This document shows, one piece after another, positions 21,889 through 59,261 of a stretch of DNA of 64,000 nucleotides. Where the stretch lies: contig CAWJQC010000007.1 in NCBI GenBank assembly GCA_963844965.1, positions 267,719 through 331,718 of the forward strand, read 5' to 3'. Within the stretch, counting starts at the first letter, position 1; the number at the start of each line of letters is the position of its first letter. This DNA is from an uncultured bacterium (GTDB lineage: Bacteria; Patescibacteriota; Minisyncoccia; UBA6257; 2-01-FULL-56-20). Made by a program: the position numbers and the translations under genes. The notes below the pieces were generated by a model, which saw only the letters and a program-made list of their open reading frames with translations, was not told the DNA's origin and did no database searches.

Positions 21889-22015
21889 TTTGCTATTTTG
21901 TCTGAAAAATAGGCCCTGACTCAAAGTCGAGGTTTTTATTTGTTGTCGGCGGGACATTTTGGATTTTTCCAGTAGTAAATGCTAAACTAAATCTACAACT
22001 TAATATGCCTAAACC

Positions 22016-22129
22016 GCCGAAATTTCGGTAACATGGCGTAAAAATCCCATCCCTGATACTAAGCTCCTCGCTTAGCTACTCAGGGATGGGTCGCGTCTCG
22101 AAAGAGGCGTGGGTAACCGAAAGGTTGCC
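22016..22129 (+). promoter_or_regulatory. highly structured palindromic leader upstream of the MTase-nuclease gene (nested perfect hairpins, GNRA-type loops, repeated CCCATCCCTG motif)
   Basis: ccgaaatttcgg; cccatccctga[tactaagctcctcgcttagcta]tcagggatggg (11-bp perfect stem with inner stem); gcgtctcgaaagaggcg; ggtaaccgaaaggttgcc. CCCATCCCTG recurs at 22176, 4 nt before the ATG. Confidence 0.35.
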
Positions 22130-44081: not shown

Positions 44082-44377
44082 AGTTAGTTCTTCATTTCTA
44101 TCACGTTGAGCAGCTTTTCGCAAAAGATGAAGGGACGTCAGGAACCCTCAAAAAATATTGTCAAACTGGCTCCAAACGTGATACCTTTTAGGTAATTGAA
44201 TATCAGATAGATCGCCTAAACCACGCATTTTGCATGGCATGGCATTACGCAGAATCTCCCTTCCAGATACCAAACGCCACGTTTGGCGACTTCTGGAAGG
44301 GAGTCACTCCGAAAGGGGTGGGGCCGCAAGGCCCAAGCCAGCGTGGCGTTTTGTGTTCTCTATTTTAAAACAAACCC

Positions 44378-56360: not shown

Positions 56361-57014
56361 ATGAAGAAGACGGACCTGAAAGCGGCCCTAGTCATCGGAG
56401 CCGGTGTTGGGCTTCTAATTCAGCCGATTATTGAGAACATTATGAGGGGATCGGCAGCGCTCGTTTTTCTTTTCGGGACGGGAGCGTTGGGATTGCCGAC
56501 GCGCCTGATTATTCTGATTTTTTTCGCTGTTCTCGCACCGCTCGCGCTCTTTGTCGGTTATTTGCTGGGAAAGATATTGCCGGTGATATATCAGTTTACT
56601 AAATTCGCGGCCGTCGGTACTCTGAATTCTTTCATCAACGTGGGTGTTCTGAACCTCTTGTCGCTTTTGACCGGTGTGGCGAGTGGTATCTGGATACCGG
56701 TTTTCGCCACCGTGGCGTTCTTGGCTGCTACGACAAACAGCTTTTTCTGGAATAAATACTGGACTTTTGGTACTCACGGAGGTCCGAAAGCCGGCGAGAC
56801 CGTCAAGTTCTATGTTATAGCCGGCGTCGGCTGGATCCTGAACACATCCGCGATCTCCGTGGTAGTCAACTATTTGCGCCCGCAGAGCGTTTCTCCCGAG
56901 CTTTGGCTTAATATCGGAGCATTAGCGGGCATCGTGGTGTCCTTCCTATGGGACTTTTTTGGCTATAAATACCTGGTTTTTAAAGAAACGGGAGAAGTAA
57001 AAATTGGTTCCTGA
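56361..57014 (+). CDS. GtrA-family membrane protein (extra N-terminal TM helices)
   Basis: …YQFTKFAAVGTLNSFINVGVLNLLS…NSFFWNKYWTF… matches GtrA (F..VG…N……N..W.F), with 4-5 TM helices. Confidence 0.55.
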   Translation: MKKTDLKAALVIGAGVGLLIQPIIENIMRGSAALVFLFGTGALGLPTRLIILIFFAVLAPLALFVGYLLGKILPVIYQFTKFAAVGTLNSFINVGVLNLLSLLTGVASGIWIPVFATVAFLAATTNSFFWNKYWTFGTHGGPKAGETVKFYVIAGVGWILNTSAISVVVNYLRPQSVSPELWLNIGALAGIVVSFLWDFFGYKYLVFKETGEVKIGS

Positions 57015-57095
57015 AGGATTGTTTTATACAGCCCTTTTTGCAGCATAAAAGCGCCCCCTATTGCTTTTTTGGGCGGCATTTGCTATAATGCTATT

Positions 57096-57327
57096 GGATG
57101 AGTGTGAGTATACCTCGGCGACGACGTCGATCGAGGCATGCCCCATCAATCTGTTTGGCCAAAGACCCCGCAAGGGGTTTTTGGTTTTTCACCAAAACCC
57201 CCTTGCGGGTGAAAGGGGTCGGGGAAACGGGGGTTTCCGCGTGGCGGAAACATTGAAACCGCTGGGTTTCAAGGAGCGAGTTGCTGTCTAGCGACTCGCG
57301 ACCCGCACGGGGTTTTGGTTTTTTTAT
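57096..57327 (+). ncRNA. candidate structured small RNA / leader (TATAAT promoter, multiple GNRA hairpins, two terminator-like hairpins)
   Basis: TATAAT at 57084-57089. Palindrome ccccgcaaggggtttttggtttttcaccaaaacccccttgcggg; hairpins ggaaacgggggtttcc, gcggaaacattgaaaccgc, gcgagttgctgtctagcgactcgc; final cccgcacggggttttggttttttt. The only ORF (57061..57291) has no coding signal. Confidence 0.3.
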
Positions 57328-57402
57328 TTGACAATTTGACTCGGGGTTATGTAAGCTGGAAAAAGCGTTAACGAAAAGAGCGTTAATGAAGGAGGAAAAA
57401 CG

Positions 57403-57603
57403 ATGGCAACTGGAAAAGGGGTGGACTATAAAAAAGAAGTGGCCGAAGCGCAGGCCAACCTAGAGAGGAGAGCTTTTGTGATGAAGACGGGGGTGGAAAT
57501 TCAGCCGGGGCAGAAAATTCGTCTAATCGAGCGTCTCGGCGCGCAAGGCGGTAAATACCGGTTTAGAGCCGTGCTTGAACGTCTCGAGGACTATTGGTAT
57601 TGA
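57403..57603 (+). CDS. hypothetical small protein
   Basis: 66 aa ORF with a good RBS (gaaggaggaaaaacgATG). No motif recognised. Confidence 0.3.
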   Translation: MATGKGVDYKKEVAEAQANLERRAFVMKTGVEIQPGQKIRLIERLGAQGGKYRFRAVLERLEDYWY

Positions 57604-57934
57604 TGCGCCTTTTCAAGCTGGGCATCCCCGTAGGGCATCCCTTTTGTTTTTGACAACGCTGTGCGGTTTATGTAGTGTCAAAGAAGTTGTGTTAATAGGA
57701 ACAAGGCTGATGAGGGGCATTATGGTAATTGGCTTGGAAGTAACGAGAGAAGAACTCAAAGAAGTTGATGCTATAAAAGAGATGGCAGGCTACGCAACTA
57801 GAAAAGAATTGTTTATCTCAGCTTCGCGTAGATTCCGAGAGATTATTGAGGCGATAAGAGAGGGCAAATCCGTAGTGGTTATCGGTCCTGACGACAAGAC
57901 GGAGAAGGTGATAGCGGCTCCGGGCTGTTGGTAA
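57575..57934 (+). CDS. hypothetical small protein (possible start at internal Met ~57713)
   Basis: C-terminal part …MVIGLEVTREELKEVDAIKEMAGYATRKELFISASRRFREIIEAIREGKSVVVIG… is vaguely antitoxin-like, but not assignable. Confidence 0.25.
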   Translation: MNVSRTIGIDAPFQAGHPRRASLLFLTTLCGLCSVKEVVLIGTRLMRGIMVIGLEVTREELKEVDAIKEMAGYATRKELFISASRRFREIIEAIREGKSVVVIGPDDKTEKVIAAPGCW

Positions 57935-57998
57935 TTAGCGGGGTGTGTTCTGGCACACCTCCTTTTGTTTTTAGCCAAGATATTCTATCATATTAAGT

Positions 57999-58334
57999 GG
58001 AGCCGGCTGTAGAGCACTCAAACAATTCCCCTTTGGGTGGTTGCCAGTAGAGCACTCATTCATAACAAACAGAATTGGAGGTCACCACTGGCAACCACCC
58101 AGGGCAGAATTGTCCCGCAACTCTCTGCGAGCCGCCAAGGTGAGCAGCTAGAGTTGGCGCGATCCCGCTTAATCTCCGATGCATGCAGACAACTGGTTTT
58201 CATCGCAGAGAGAACGGGATCTACGCCAATCTAACCTCAGGACTTTGTCCTTCGGAGATTGGGCGGGAGAGGTCACCACAGCCGCTCCGCCGAGAACCTT
58301 TCTGGGTTCTGGGCGGAGCGGCTGTTCGTGTTTC
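57999..58334 (+). ncRNA. candidate structured RNA / long structured leader upstream of murB
   Basis: Perfect 14-bp stem gggtggttgccagt/actggcaaccaccc; perfect 13-bp stem cagccgctccgcc/ggcggagcggctg ending 15 nt before the murB ATG; long-range complement aactctctgcgag/ctcgcagagag; direct repeat gtagagcactca x2. No credible ORF. Confidence 0.3.
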
Positions 58335-59261
58335 ATGGAGTTCAAAAAAGACGTCAATTTAGCGGAATACAGCAACTATAAAATCGGCGGGCCGGCCAAG
58401 TTTTTTTTTGAAGTGAAAAGCGTTGAAGAGACAGAATGGGCGGTCAAGGAGGCGAAGAGGCGCGGACTTAAAATTTTCGTTTTGGGAGGCGGAACGAATC
58501 TTTTGATTAGCGACGAAGGTTACGATGGCTTGGTTCTGAAACCGGCCGTGAGATTTTTGAAGTGCGACGGAACGGCAATAACAGCCGGGGCAGGGACTTT
58601 AATGTCCGAACTTTTGGATTTCGCGGCGGAAAAAGGATTAAGTGGCCTTGAGTGGGCCGGCGGACTGCCGGGGACTTTGGGCGGCGCTATCCGCGGCAAC
58701 GCCGGCGCTTTCGGCGGCGAGATTAAGGATTCCGTTGGCTCGGTAATGAGCTTGAGGATCGGCGACTTGAAGCAAGTGACAAGGGACAAGAATGAATGCA
58801 AATTTGGATACAGAGCGAGCATCTTCAAGGAGAGCAGCGGCGAAGAAATAATTTTAAGCGCCACATTGCGTTTAAATAACGGCGAGGCGGCGGAAATCAA
58901 AAAAATTATCCGGGAAAAAATTGATTATCGCTTAAGCCGCCAGCCGCTGGAGTACCCCAATATCGGAAGCATTTTCAAGAATGTTCCAGTTGAACTCGTA
59001 CCGAAAGACGTTCTTCCAAAATGCGCCGATGCTATAAAACAGGACCCATTCCCGATAGTTCCGGCGGCCCGTCTCATCGGACTTACCGGCCTCAAAGGCG
59101 CAAAACACGGCGGCGCGATGATATCGCCCAAGCACGGCAATTTCATTGTGAACGTCGGGGATGCCAAGGCGGCGGATGTCAAAAATCTTATAAACCTAAT
59201 TAAAGAGGAGGTCCGCAAAAAGTTCGGTATCAAATTGGAAGAGGAAATAATGGAATTGTAG
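58335..59261 (+). CDS. murB: UDP-N-acetylenolpyruvoylglucosamine reductase
   Basis: MEFKKDVNLAEYSNYKIGGPAKFFFEV…FVLGGGTNLLISDEG… (FAD-binding) and C-terminal MurB motifs. Start at the internal Met of ORF 58179..59261. Confidence 0.85.
   Translation: MEFKKDVNLAEYSNYKIGGPAKFFFEVKSVEETEWAVKEAKRRGLKIFVLGGGTNLLISDEGYDGLVLKPAVRFLKCDGTAITAGAGTLMSELLDFAAEKGLSGLEWAGGLPGTLGGAIRGNAGAFGGEIKDSVGSVMSLRIGDLKQVTRDKNECKFGYRASIFKESSGEEIILSATLRLNNGEAAEIKKIIREKIDYRLSRQPLEYPNIGSIFKNVPVELVPKDVLPKCADAIKQDPFPIVPAARLIGLTGLKGAKHGGAMISPKHGNFIVNVGDAKAADVKNLINLIKEEVRKKFGIKLEEEIMEL

What the first reader, a model, noticed from the sequence alone, without database searches (positions are those of the whole stretch)
57096..57327. 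Candidate ~230-nt structured RNA between gtrA-like and a small ORF, with TATAAT promoter, GNRA hairpins and tandem terminator-like hairpins
TATAAT at 57084-57089 is followed by a near-perfect 45-nt palindrome built from ccccgcaagggg hairpins with U-tracts and three further GNRA-type hairpins. The element ends in cccgcacggggttttggttttttt. The only ORF here has no coding signal. It could be an sRNA or a riboswitch/attenuator controlling the downstream 66-aa ORF.
Basis: seen in the sequence. Interest (0 to 1): 0.5.

Follow-up and report, generated by a model that had tools for sequence, protein, structure and literature searches.

The report
Small RNA targeting the murB leader
The flagged stretch holds a real, deeply conserved ~95-base small RNA gene of uncultured Paceibacteria whose two ends base-pair with the control region of the cell-wall gene murB 860 bases downstream, fused to a second structured RNA of unknown function; neither is in Rfam 15 or in the papers searched.

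Summary
The sequence features are real, but the 232-nt "element" is two RNAs. (A) 57096-57190 is a ~95-nt small RNA. It has a conserved promoter (TTGCTT-N17-TGCTATAAT-N6-+1), a covarying central hairpin and an intrinsic terminator. I found it in 26 of 29 Paceibacteria loci that carry a conserved murB leader, always upstream on the same strand. Its first 10 nt (S1) and the 9-12 nt before its terminator (S2) are complementary to two adjacent segments (T1, T2) in the apical hairpin of that leader (window 58052-58077). S2:T2 shows compensatory changes: cognate duplexes average -13.3 against -9.7 kcal/mol for non-cognate ones (p=5e-5). In many loci, and in the window's outer layer, the leader has an antiterminator/terminator alternative. 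The sRNA therefore most likely controls murB(-hpf) expression by remodelling the leader. The direction of control is unresolved. (B) 57191-57327 is a four-helix module of a second unclassified RNA family, present at this site only here and in one relative. Its closing stem is an inverted plus a direct copy of the sRNA terminator. Relatives elsewhere copy the 3' end of tRNA-Gln instead, and some form tandem arrays. Neither RNA matches Rfam 15. The idea of a riboswitch for the 66-aa ORF is not supported: that ORF has its own promoter and is absent from every other sRNA locus.

The parts
57061..57089 (+). sRNA promoter: -35 TTGCTT (57061-66), 17-nt spacer, extended -10 TGCTATAAT (57081-89)
   Evidence: Sequence. 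The same layout, TTGACw/TTGCnt-N17-TGCTATAAT-N6-GAATG, is kept in most of the 24 loci listed, with a degenerate -10 or changed spacing in a few.
57096..57190 (+). ~95-nt small RNA (module A)
   Evidence: nhmmer and blastn find it at 73-87% nt identity next to gtrA/murB in loci whose GtrA is only 43-55% identical. Single copy in the window. No Rfam hit at E<=10.
57096..57105 (+). Seed S1 (GGAUGAGUGU), at the predicted 5' end of the sRNA; pairs with T1
   Evidence: 8 Watson-Crick + 2 G-U pairs with 58052-58061. 93% of cells paired over 23 loci. Duplex about -15 kcal/mol in every locus. Unpaired in the consensus fold.
57108..57141 (+). Central hairpin of the sRNA (CCUCG/CGAGG + CGAC-GAC-GUCG)
   Evidence: 11 of 13 pairs show compensatory changes. 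RNAalifold: 12 of 15 pairs.
57147..57157 (+). Seed S2 (CAAUCUGUUUG); pairs with T2
   Evidence: 11 bp + 1 bulge with 58066-58077. Covaries across loci (L140 UUCUUUUUG/CAAAAAGAA; L023 UUCUAUUUG/CAAAUAGAA; L016, L020, L187, L105).
57158..57189 (+). Intrinsic terminator of the sRNA (GCCAAAGACCCC-GCAA-GGGGUUUUUGGU + U tract)
   Evidence: A hairpin plus U tract stands at this position in the orthologues examined.
57191..57327 (+). Module B: four-helix structured RNA. P1 57191-210/57301-319; core GAAAGGGGUCGGGGAAAC 57211-28; P2 57221-28/57233-40; P3 57254-71; P4 57276-99
   Evidence: Folds as a closed multibranch domain. Related copies in L004, L188, L023, L010, L033, L050, L118. No Rfam hit.
57301..57326 (+). 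3' strand of P1 (a direct copy of the sRNA terminator, 87% over 23 nt) + U7 = second terminator
   Evidence: Direct repeat D1 and inverted repeats I1/I2/I4.
57999..58334 (+). murB leader, nested. Outer P1 57999-58009/58279-88; inner long helix 58035-47/58088-58100 capped by the conserved apical motif
   Evidence: z = -9.65. Leader HMM hit at 58049-58088, E=1.6e-13. P1 covaries in 12 of 12 pairs. No Rfam hit at E<=10.
58052..58061 (+). T1 (GCACUCAUUC), target of S1; 5' strand of the apical helix
58066..58077 (+). T2 (CAAACAGAAUUG), target of S2; loop and 3' strand of the apical helix
58077..58087 (+). Invariant GGAGGUCACCA (Shine-Dalgarno-like). Paired with the T1 strand in the free leader; would be freed by sRNA binding. 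A second copy lies at 58267-78
   Evidence: GAGGTCACC is invariant in the 9 GtrA-selected loci plus the window, none of them chosen by this pattern. Apical helix 94% paired, pair 140:158 AU12/GC7.
58279..58334 (+). Leader terminator (CAGCCGCUCCGCCGAGAACC-UUUCU-GGGUUCUGGGCGGAGCGGCUG + U-rich tail). Its 5' arm is the 3' strand of outer P1
   Evidence: Same logic in L023, L018, L013, L014, L140, L015, L105, L183.
58335..59261 (+). murB (UDP-N-acetylenolpyruvoylglucosamine reductase), the regulated gene; hpf follows
   Evidence: Pfam MurB_C 5.3e-28 and FAD_binding_4 4.4e-18. Synteny gtrA-sRNA-leader-murB-hpf.

Best explanation
The flagged stretch holds two juxtaposed non-coding RNAs read from one strong sigma-70-type promoter.

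Module A (57096-57190) is a ~95-nt trans-acting small RNA. Its 5'-terminal 10 nt (S1) and the 9-12 nt just before its terminator (S2) pair with two adjacent segments (T1, T2) in the apical hairpin of the separately promoted murB leader. That leader is 860 nt downstream here and 22-1250 nt downstream in relatives.

In the free leader, T1 and the 3' part of T2 pair with each other. This helix also occupies an invariant GGAGGUCACCA, and the loop presents the core of T2. sRNA binding has to open this helix. In many loci, and in the window's outer layer, the helix sits on a P1 stem whose 3' strand is also the 5' arm of an intrinsic terminator. The sRNA therefore most likely sets murB(-hpf) expression by remodelling the leader, either by changing the antiterminator/terminator choice or by exposing the Shine-Dalgarno-like GGAGG for a gene that has no proximal Shine-Dalgarno sequence.

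Shown: the gene anatomy, the conservation, the co-occurrence and the covarying complementarity. Inferred: that pairing occurs in vivo, that it regulates, and in which direction.

Module B (57191-57327) is a separate structured RNA of an unclassified family. Here it can only be reached by read-through of the sRNA terminator. Its closing stem plus U tract acts as a second terminator.
For: - sRNA gene: the promoter, +1 spacing and terminator are conserved across the loci listed. The central hairpin has 11/13 compensatory pairs, and both seed regions are unpaired in the consensus fold.
- Co-occurrence: among GtrA-selected genome loci, 9 have both the sRNA and the leader and none has only one. Of 29 loci with a true leader, 26 have the sRNA upstream on the same strand.
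- Pairing: S1:T1 is 93% paired at about -15 kcal/mol everywhere. S2:T2 is 85% paired, with 4 pairs changed on both sides. The structure as a whole is 87% paired against 34-43% when slid and 77.5% when shuffled (0/500).
- Cognate S2:T2 duplexes average -13.3 against -9.7 kcal/mol for non-cognate ones, permutation p=5e-5. Cross-controls give -2.3 and -4.5.
- Leader: P1 covaries in 12/12 pairs. The apical helix is 94% paired with an AU/GC covarying pair. The full-length MFE is the terminator. Blocking T1-T2 removes 6-8 kcal/mol from the P1-capped hairpin.
- The leader has its own -10 (TATACT/TATAAT/TATCAT) about 7 nt before P1.
- murB identity and synteny.
- Precedent: the sRNA PmaR activates murB through its 5'UTR in Agrobacterium (PMC6234868).
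Against: - There is no expression data, so the transcript ends are predictions.
- S1:T1 shows no two-sided changes, only G-U wobbles. It is supported by conservation, not by covariation.
- Some nucleotides of T1 and T2 covary at least as well with each other as with the sRNA, so part of the signal is shared between two exclusive structures.
- The S1:T1 and S2:T2 arrangement is crossed (5' with 5', 3' with 3'). It cannot be modelled by cofolding, and both helices may not form at once.
- Many leaders (type 2) have no obvious terminator overlapping P1, so one mechanism may not fit all.
- Three leaders lack a recognisable sRNA in the DNA held (L118, L171, L127).
- 14 of the 24 paired loci were retrieved with a leader pattern. 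For those, the invariance of GAGGTCACC and GCACTC is partly by construction.
Confidence: 0.75

Rival explanations
1. The whole stretch is only a pile of intrinsic terminators (a back-to-back or bidirectional terminator for the flanking genes) with no RNA product of its own.
For: Two hairpin + U-tract terminators on the + strand (57158-89, 57301-26). The palindrome also reads as a terminator on the - strand. The region lies 80 nt after the gtrA stop.
Against: - The best-conserved parts are not the terminators. They are the promoter, the 5' 60 nt and the seed before the terminator.
- All neighbouring genes are on the + strand, so nothing needs a minus-strand terminator.
- The seeds covary with a distant target.
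Confidence: 0.03
2. A riboswitch or attenuator in the 5' leader of the 66-aa ORF (57403-57603).
For: Alternative pairings exist (A:A' against A':A''), and each A copy can form a terminator hairpin. The ORF follows on the same strand.
Against: - No Rfam aptamer at E<=10.
- The ORF has its own TTGACA-N18-TAAGCT promoter after the U7 tract and its own AAGGAGG.
- The ORF has no Pfam family, and tblastn finds it in none of the GtrA-selected loci. Nine of those keep the sRNA, and L004 also keeps module B.
Confidence: 0.04
3. Module A is not a separate sRNA. It is the 5' part of one long murB leader, and S1:T1 and S2:T2 form in cis as a long-range pseudoknot after read-through of the first terminator.
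For: Same strand and always upstream. In several loci the gap is only 22-85 nt. The crossed topology is that of an H-type pseudoknot.
Against: - A strong terminator follows the sRNA in the orthologues examined, and a conserved -10 box stands about 7 nt before leader P1.
- The gap reaches 632-1250 nt in five loci: L148, L185, the window, L120 and L105. In the window it holds two ORFs, each with promoter-like and terminator-like sites, so the link is not kept in cis.
Confidence: 0.12
4. The region encodes a small protein (the 52-aa ORF 57098-57256 or the 76-aa ORF 57061-57291).
For: The ORFs exist.
Against: The reading frame is broken by TGA at codon 9 in most orthologues. Substitutions are compensatory in stems rather than three-periodic. 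No Shine-Dalgarno sequence lies between the -10 box and the ATG.
Confidence: 0.01
5. Module B is a degenerate insertion or duplication product: an element that lands behind RNA genes and copies their 3' hairpin. It has no function of its own here beyond acting as a spare terminator.
For: - It sits at this site only in the window and L004, while other sRNA loci have an 'empty' site.
- It is flanked by a 23-nt direct repeat of the sRNA terminator plus an inverted copy.
- In L033 and L050 the same layout uses the 3' end of the adjacent tRNA-Gln. In other Moranbacteria loci, related units form tandem arrays.
Against: - The core GAAAGGGGUCGGGRAAAC is identical across distant lineages, apart from L010 and L118.
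- P2 and P3 change in a compensatory way (GGGG/CCCC against GGGA/UCCC; GAAACC/GGUUUC against GAGAACC/GGUUCUC). That argues for selection on the RNA.
- In L033, and probably in L188, it looks like a free-standing gene, with a -10-like box upstream and (L033) a hairpin + U tract downstream.
Confidence: 0.35

Closest known systems
T-box riboswitch (tRNA-sensing transcription antitermination; Rfam RF00230)
   Same: A separately encoded RNA binds an mRNA leader by base pairing at two sites. In many loci the leader has mutually exclusive antiterminator (P1) and terminator helices, and the terminator is the thermodynamic default.
   Different: The effector is a dedicated 95-nt sRNA, not a tRNA (ARAGORN finds none here). 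The pairing is 10 + 9-12 bp inside one apical hairpin, rather than a codon-anticodon contact plus NCCA with a T-box bulge. No Stem I or T-box sequence is present, and there is no Rfam hit at E<=10. Whether binding stabilises the antiterminator is unknown.
Antisense-RNA-mediated transcription attenuation of plasmid rep genes (pT181 RNAI/II, pIP501 RNAIII, pAMbeta1) - from my own knowledge
   Same: A small RNA meets a hairpin loop in a nascent leader, and the leader then chooses between a pre-emptor helix and a terminator.
   Different: Those RNAs are cis-encoded on the opposite strand and fully complementary. Here the sRNA is on the same strand, does not overlap the leader, has two short seeds, and controls a chromosomal housekeeping gene.
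Anti-antisense activation by trans sRNAs (DsrA/RprA-rpoS, GlmZ-glmS, RNAIII-hla - own knowledge); PmaR-murB in Agrobacterium (PMC6234868)
   Same: The sRNA pairs with the strand that occludes a Shine-Dalgarno-like sequence, which would free it. PmaR shows that murB can be activated by an sRNA through its 5'UTR.
   Different: There is no sequence relationship. The GGAGG lies about 45 to 250 nt or more upstream of the murB AUG, so it would act as a standby site or split ribosome-binding site at best. The sRNA gene is syntenic with its target. Two seeds clamp one hairpin.
Rfam families found elsewhere in the window (LOOT RNA, RF03000)
   Same: Also a structured RNA of unknown function in this genome.
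   Different: There is no similarity. Neither module A, module B nor the leader matches LOOT or any of the 4227 Rfam models.

Membership tests
Trans-encoded base-pairing sRNA | Own promoter and defined 5' end | tested here: met
   TTGACw/TTGCnt-N17-TGCTATAAT-N6-GAATG is kept in most of the 24 loci listed, with a degenerate -10 or changed spacing in a few. This is a prediction; no transcript data exist.
Trans-encoded base-pairing sRNA | Rho-independent terminator at the 3' end | tested here: met
   Hairpin + U tract at 57158-57189 and at the same position in the orthologues examined.
Trans-encoded base-pairing sRNA | Conserved single-stranded seed complementary to a target, with covariation | tested here: met
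   S2:T2 has 4 pairs with two-sided changes; cognate against non-cognate p=5e-5. S1:T1 is 93% paired but only conserved, not covarying.
Trans-encoded base-pairing sRNA | Detectable transcript and a regulatory effect on the target | not testable with these tools
   No RNA-seq or experimental tool is available. The organism is an uncultured Paceibacteria MAG.
T-box riboswitch | Stem I with specifier loop, T-box sequence and antiterminator bulge (matches RF00230) | tested here: not met
   No T-box hit at E<=10 in 57950-58420, nor at gathering score anywhere in the window.
T-box riboswitch | The effector is a tRNA | tested here: not met
   The partner is the 95-nt sRNA. ARAGORN and Rfam find no tRNA at 57096-57327.
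T-box riboswitch | Mutually exclusive terminator and antiterminator | tested here: met
   The 3' strand of P1 is the 5' arm of the terminator in the window (58279-88) and in L023, L018, L013, L014, L140, L015, L105, L183.
Cis-antisense attenuation (pT181/pIP501 type) | Regulator transcribed from the strand opposite the leader and overlapping it | tested here: not met
   The sRNA is on the same strand, 22-1250 nt upstream.
Metabolite riboswitch (any Rfam class) for module A, module B or the leader | Match to a curated aptamer model | tested here: not met
   Only chance miRNA-like hits on the palindromes.
Plain intrinsic terminators only | Nothing but hairpin + U tract is conserved, serving converging genes | tested here: not met
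   The promoter, seeds and central hairpin are conserved. No minus-strand gene is present.
tRNA / tmRNA (considered for module B because of its T-arm-like closing stems in relatives) | Cloverleaf or tmRNA tRNA-like domain detectable by ARAGORN or Rfam | tested here: not met
   Only the neighbouring tRNA-Gln genes are called.

The most novel reading that the evidence does not exclude
Paceibacteria control the essential cell-wall gene murB with an RNA-sensing leader: a T-box-like switch whose effector is a dedicated, syntenic small RNA that clamps the apical hairpin with both of its ends. In addition, the attached module B would belong to a previously undescribed class of structured RNA units that build their closing stem by copying the 3'-terminal hairpin of the RNA gene they follow. 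Here that hairpin is the sRNA terminator. In Moranbacteria it is the T-arm and acceptor end of tRNA-Gln, where the units form tandem arrays. That pattern suggests a new RNA-gene-targeting mobile or duplicative element.
Probability: 0.3. Interest if true: 0.8.

Novelty: new variant of a known kind. Interest (0 to 1): 0.62.

Why it matters
My searches of the paper library found no base-pairing sRNA or sRNA target described for Patescibacteria/CPR.

This sRNA keeps 73-87% nucleotide identity where the neighbouring GtrA protein keeps only 43-55%. From my own knowledge that is unusual for an sRNA, and it points to an important role.

The target is murB, an essential peptidoglycan gene, followed by the hibernation factor gene hpf. 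The pair could therefore be a growth or cell-envelope control point in ultrasmall bacteria.

Mechanistically, it offers a natural case of one RNA reading another through two seeds at a terminator/antiterminator leader, and it can be tested in vitro.

Module B and the tRNA-Gln-linked arrays add a second RNA family that does not match Rfam 15.

Tried and rejected
- Rfam over the whole window at gathering score, and in E-value mode over the region, the leader and 18 related loci: nothing but tRNAs, LOOT elsewhere, and chance miRNA-like hits on the palindromes.
- ARAGORN for tRNA/tmRNA in the window and in module-B loci: none at these elements.
- Exact look-up of GtrA: not on record. The look-up of the 66-aa protein gave only an identical 1.2-kb contig (L001), which is uninformative.
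- The consensus promoter scan missed the sRNA promoter, because its -35 matches only 3/6.
- My first tblastn with MurB used a wrong frame (58336). The correct start is 58335.
- The metagenome pattern scan returned mostly chance hits. Only about 19 of the 120 loci it returned are true leaders, so I filtered them with HMMs.
- A naive window-wide search for further sRNA targets by duplex energy was dominated by G-rich flanks and is uninformative.
- A viral-contig scan with the module-B core gave one chance match, L194.
- The automatic search for a repeat of the P1 strand downstream was too crude and crashed. I classified the leaders by eye instead.
- Ideas considered from memory and dropped, with no supporting match: RNase P, SRP, 6S, H/ACA-like guide (wrong strand topology), terminal inverted repeats of a transposon (the order T1-T2 is not that of a simple inverted repeat), and group I intron (PMC13011429 concerns anticodon-loop introns).

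Full report
**Observation**

- TATAAT at 57084-89 is part of a perfect extended -10 (TGCTATAAT), with TTGCTT 17 nt upstream.
- A 43-nt palindrome lies at 57167-85 / 57191-209: 19-nt arms, 95% complementary.
- The stretch ends in CCCGCACGGGG plus a U tract (57302-26).
- The 19-mer CCCGCAAGGGGTTTTTGGT occurs three times, as A (+), A' (inverted) and A'' (+), against 0.03 expected.
- The region folds far better than shuffles: z = -6.5 on the + strand and -7.2 on the - strand.
- The 'three GNRA hairpins' are not GNRA. Their loops are GUG, GCUG and GUCU.

**Context**

All genes here are on the + strand: tpiA, a SIMPL-domain gene, gtrA (56361-57014), the flagged region, two orphan ORFs of 66 and 70 aa (no Pfam family), then murB (58335-59261) and hpf. 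Related loci come from Candidatus Paceibacterota/Parcubacteria MAGs. The closest GtrA is only 55% identical.

**The stretch is composite**

I compared 57040-57400 with 72 GtrA-selected genome loci.
- Only the 5' part (promoter plus about 95 nt, ending at the first terminator) is conserved, at 73-87% nucleotide identity. It lies right after gtrA in eight loci and about 1.5 kb downstream of it in L004.
- The 3' 137 nt recur at this position only in L004.
- A metagenome scan with a leader pattern, filtered with HMMs, added 14 loci that carry the sRNA.

**Module A is an sRNA gene**

- Most of the 24 loci listed keep TTGACw/TTGCnt-N17-TGCTATAAT-N6-GAATG, so the transcript should begin with GAAUG.
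- Each orthologue examined ends in a hairpin plus U tract.
- The central hairpin has compensatory changes in 11 of 13 pairs (RNAalifold 12 of 15).
- The first ~13 nt and the ~18 nt before the terminator are conserved but unpaired in the consensus fold.
- The 52-aa ORF is interrupted by TGA at codon 9 in most orthologues.
- There is no Rfam match at E<=10 and no second copy in the window.

**The target**

In the other loci the sRNA is followed, after 22-170 nt in most and up to 1250 nt, by a second conserved element with its own -10 box. This element is a stem P1 enclosing ..AGAGCACUCRUUCAAnACAAACAGAAYYGGAGGUCACCA.., and murB lies downstream of it. The window has this element at 57999-58334, nested inside a larger, very stable leader (z = -9.65).
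- The sRNA 5' end (S1, GAAUGAGUGY) is the complement of GCACUCRUUC (T1).
- The segment before the sRNA terminator (S2, ..UUCUGUUUG..) is the complement of CAAACAGAA.. (T2).
- Where T2 differs, S2 differs to match: L140 UUCUUUUUG/CAAAAAGAA; L023, L148 and L183 UUCUAUUUG/CAAAUAGAA; L016 AUUAUGUUUG/CAAACAUAAU; L020 GCUUUGUUU/AAACAAAGC; L187 AGCUAUUUGUA/UACAAAUAGC; L105 has a one-base deletion in both.
- Quantified over 24 loci, cognate S2:T2 duplexes average -13.3 kcal/mol against -9.7 for non-cognate pairs (permutation p = 5e-5).
- S1:T1 is about -15 kcal/mol in all combinations, so it is conserved rather than covarying. The crossed controls are -2.3 and -4.5.
- On a 23-locus alignment, the four helices together are 87% paired. 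That compares with 77.5% after shuffling (0/500) and 34-43% when slid. S2:T2 has four pairs with two-sided changes, and leader P1 covaries in 12 of 12 pairs.
- Co-occurrence is near complete. Nine GtrA-selected loci have both elements and none has one alone. Of 29 loci with a true leader, 26 have the sRNA upstream on the same strand.
- In the window, S1 (57096-105) pairs with 58052-61 by 8 Watson-Crick and 2 G-U pairs. S2 (57147-57) pairs with 58066-77 by 11 bp and one bulge.

**How it may work**

- Folding partial leaders shows P1 capped by an irregular apical helix. In that helix the 3' part of T1 (RUUC) pairs with the 3' part of T2 (GAAY), and GAGCAC lies opposite GGAGGUC. The 10-nt loop presents the core of T2.
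- This helix is 94% paired, and its R:Y pair covaries (AU 12, GC 7).
- sRNA binding, with S2 on the loop and 3' strand and S1 on the 5' strand, is therefore exclusive with the apical helix. It would free the invariant GGAGGUCACCA.
- In the window's outer layer and in at least eight other loci, the 3' strand of P1 is also the 5' arm of a long intrinsic terminator. The terminator is the full-length MFE.
- murB lacks a proximal Shine-Dalgarno sequence in the loci read.

Three readings remain open:
- T-box-like stabilisation of the antiterminator.
- pT181-like promotion of termination. Blocking T1-T2 removes 6-8 kcal/mol from the antiterminator hairpin.
- Exposure of a standby or split ribosome-binding site.

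I commit to 'the sRNA remodels the murB leader and thereby sets murB expression'. I give about 0.5 to an effect on termination, slightly favouring activation. This is inference; nothing here shows expression or regulation.

**Module B (57191-57327)**

Module B folds as a closed four-helix domain.
- Its P1 is A' with A'', followed by a U7 tract, so it forms a second terminator.
- It has no promoter of its own here, so it would be made only by read-through.
- Related copies share the core GAAAGGGGUCGGGRAAAC, the motif CCCGUGUAGG, a P3 hairpin and the motif CAAGGAGCGA..GCGAC. P2 and P3 vary in a compensatory way. The copies are in L004, L188, L023 (just upstream of tpiA), L010, L118, L033 and L050.
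- No copy matches Rfam, tRNA or tmRNA models.

Unexplained pattern: P1 is always made from the 3'-terminal hairpin of the RNA gene upstream.
- In the window, L004 and L118 that hairpin is the sRNA terminator.
- In L033 and L050 it is the T-loop, T-stem and acceptor end of the adjacent tRNA-Gln, together with a duplicated terminator.
- In six other Moranbacteria loci, tRNA-Gln is followed by related 150-183-nt units. Most are in tandem; TRF finds 2.2-2.4 copies per row in L043 and L035. In five of these loci the first 22 nt of each unit are the exact antisense of the tRNA 3' end. In L022 a shorter match changes along with its tRNA.

This could mark a duplicative or mobile RNA element, or mimicry of processing and termination signals. 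I could not resolve which.

**Comparison and novelty**

The closest analogues by mechanism are the T-box, plasmid antisense attenuation and anti-antisense sRNA activation. PmaR-murB in Agrobacterium is a functional precedent (PMC6234868).
- Membership in the T-box family fails on every sequence-defined feature.
- Membership in the generic class 'trans-encoded base-pairing sRNA' is met on all features that can be tested by computation.
- Literature searches found nothing on sRNAs in Patescibacteria or on a murB RNA motif.

I rate it a new variant of a known kind, of above-average interest. The reasons are its deep conservation, the essential target, the two-seed clamp on a terminator/antiterminator leader, and the unclassified second RNA family.

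**Caveats**

- 14 of the 24 paired loci were retrieved with a pattern that fixes GCACTC and GAGGTCACC.
- Relatedness among sequences inflates shuffle statistics.
- The crossed two-helix complex cannot be energy-modelled with the tools at hand.
- Module B rests on only about eight sequences.

Noticed in passing
window 22006-22129 and 44213-44334 (+): Two LOOT RNAs (Rfam RF03000), at 84.1 and 58.4 bits against a gathering score of 46.4. They are the only non-tRNA Rfam hits in the window.
   Followed up: no
L035 5538-6250, L043 5720-6049; also L036, L040, L041, L022, just after tRNA-Gln: Arrays of 150-183-nt structured units, mostly tandem. In five of these loci the first 22 nt of each unit are the exact antisense of the adjacent tRNA-Gln 3' end; in L022 a shorter match changes along with its tRNA. 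The 3' end of each unit copies the T-stem and acceptor strand. The units share end motifs with module B and have no Rfam match.
   Followed up: partly
window 57328-57978: Two orphan ORFs (66 aa at 57403-57603; 70 aa at 57722-57934). Each has a TTGACA-N18-TAnnnT promoter-like site directly after the preceding terminator hairpin, its own Shine-Dalgarno sequence and its own terminator. Neither has a Pfam family. Both sit between the sRNA and the murB leader, and tblastn finds them in no related locus except the identical contig L001.
   Followed up: partly
window 58335 and orthologues (L023, L011, L153, L074, L014, L188, L078): murB start codons have no recognisable Shine-Dalgarno sequence within 15 nt. 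The only strong GGAGG lies in the apical motif of the leader, from about 45 to more than 250 nt upstream.
   Followed up: partly
window 57999-58334; L004, L086: The murB leader is nested. An outer half-motif (UAGAGCACUC at 58010-58019 ... GAGAGGUCACCA at 58267-78, closed by P1 and the terminator) encloses a complete inner motif on an 18-bp helix, plus about 170 nt of further helices. It looks as if one copy was inserted into another.
   Followed up: partly
L118 1330-1540: This murB leader carries three tandem copies of the T1-like segment (GAGCACTCATTTACATTATTGTG...). Its upstream sRNA looks degenerate: an S2-like segment and a terminator remain, but there is no S1, and module B follows.
   Followed up: no
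L095 ~1880-1990; L087 ~2040-2160: Divergent sRNA orthologues missed by the HMM. They have the same S1, a short (L095) or different (L087) central region, and an S2 that matches its own leader.
   Followed up: partly
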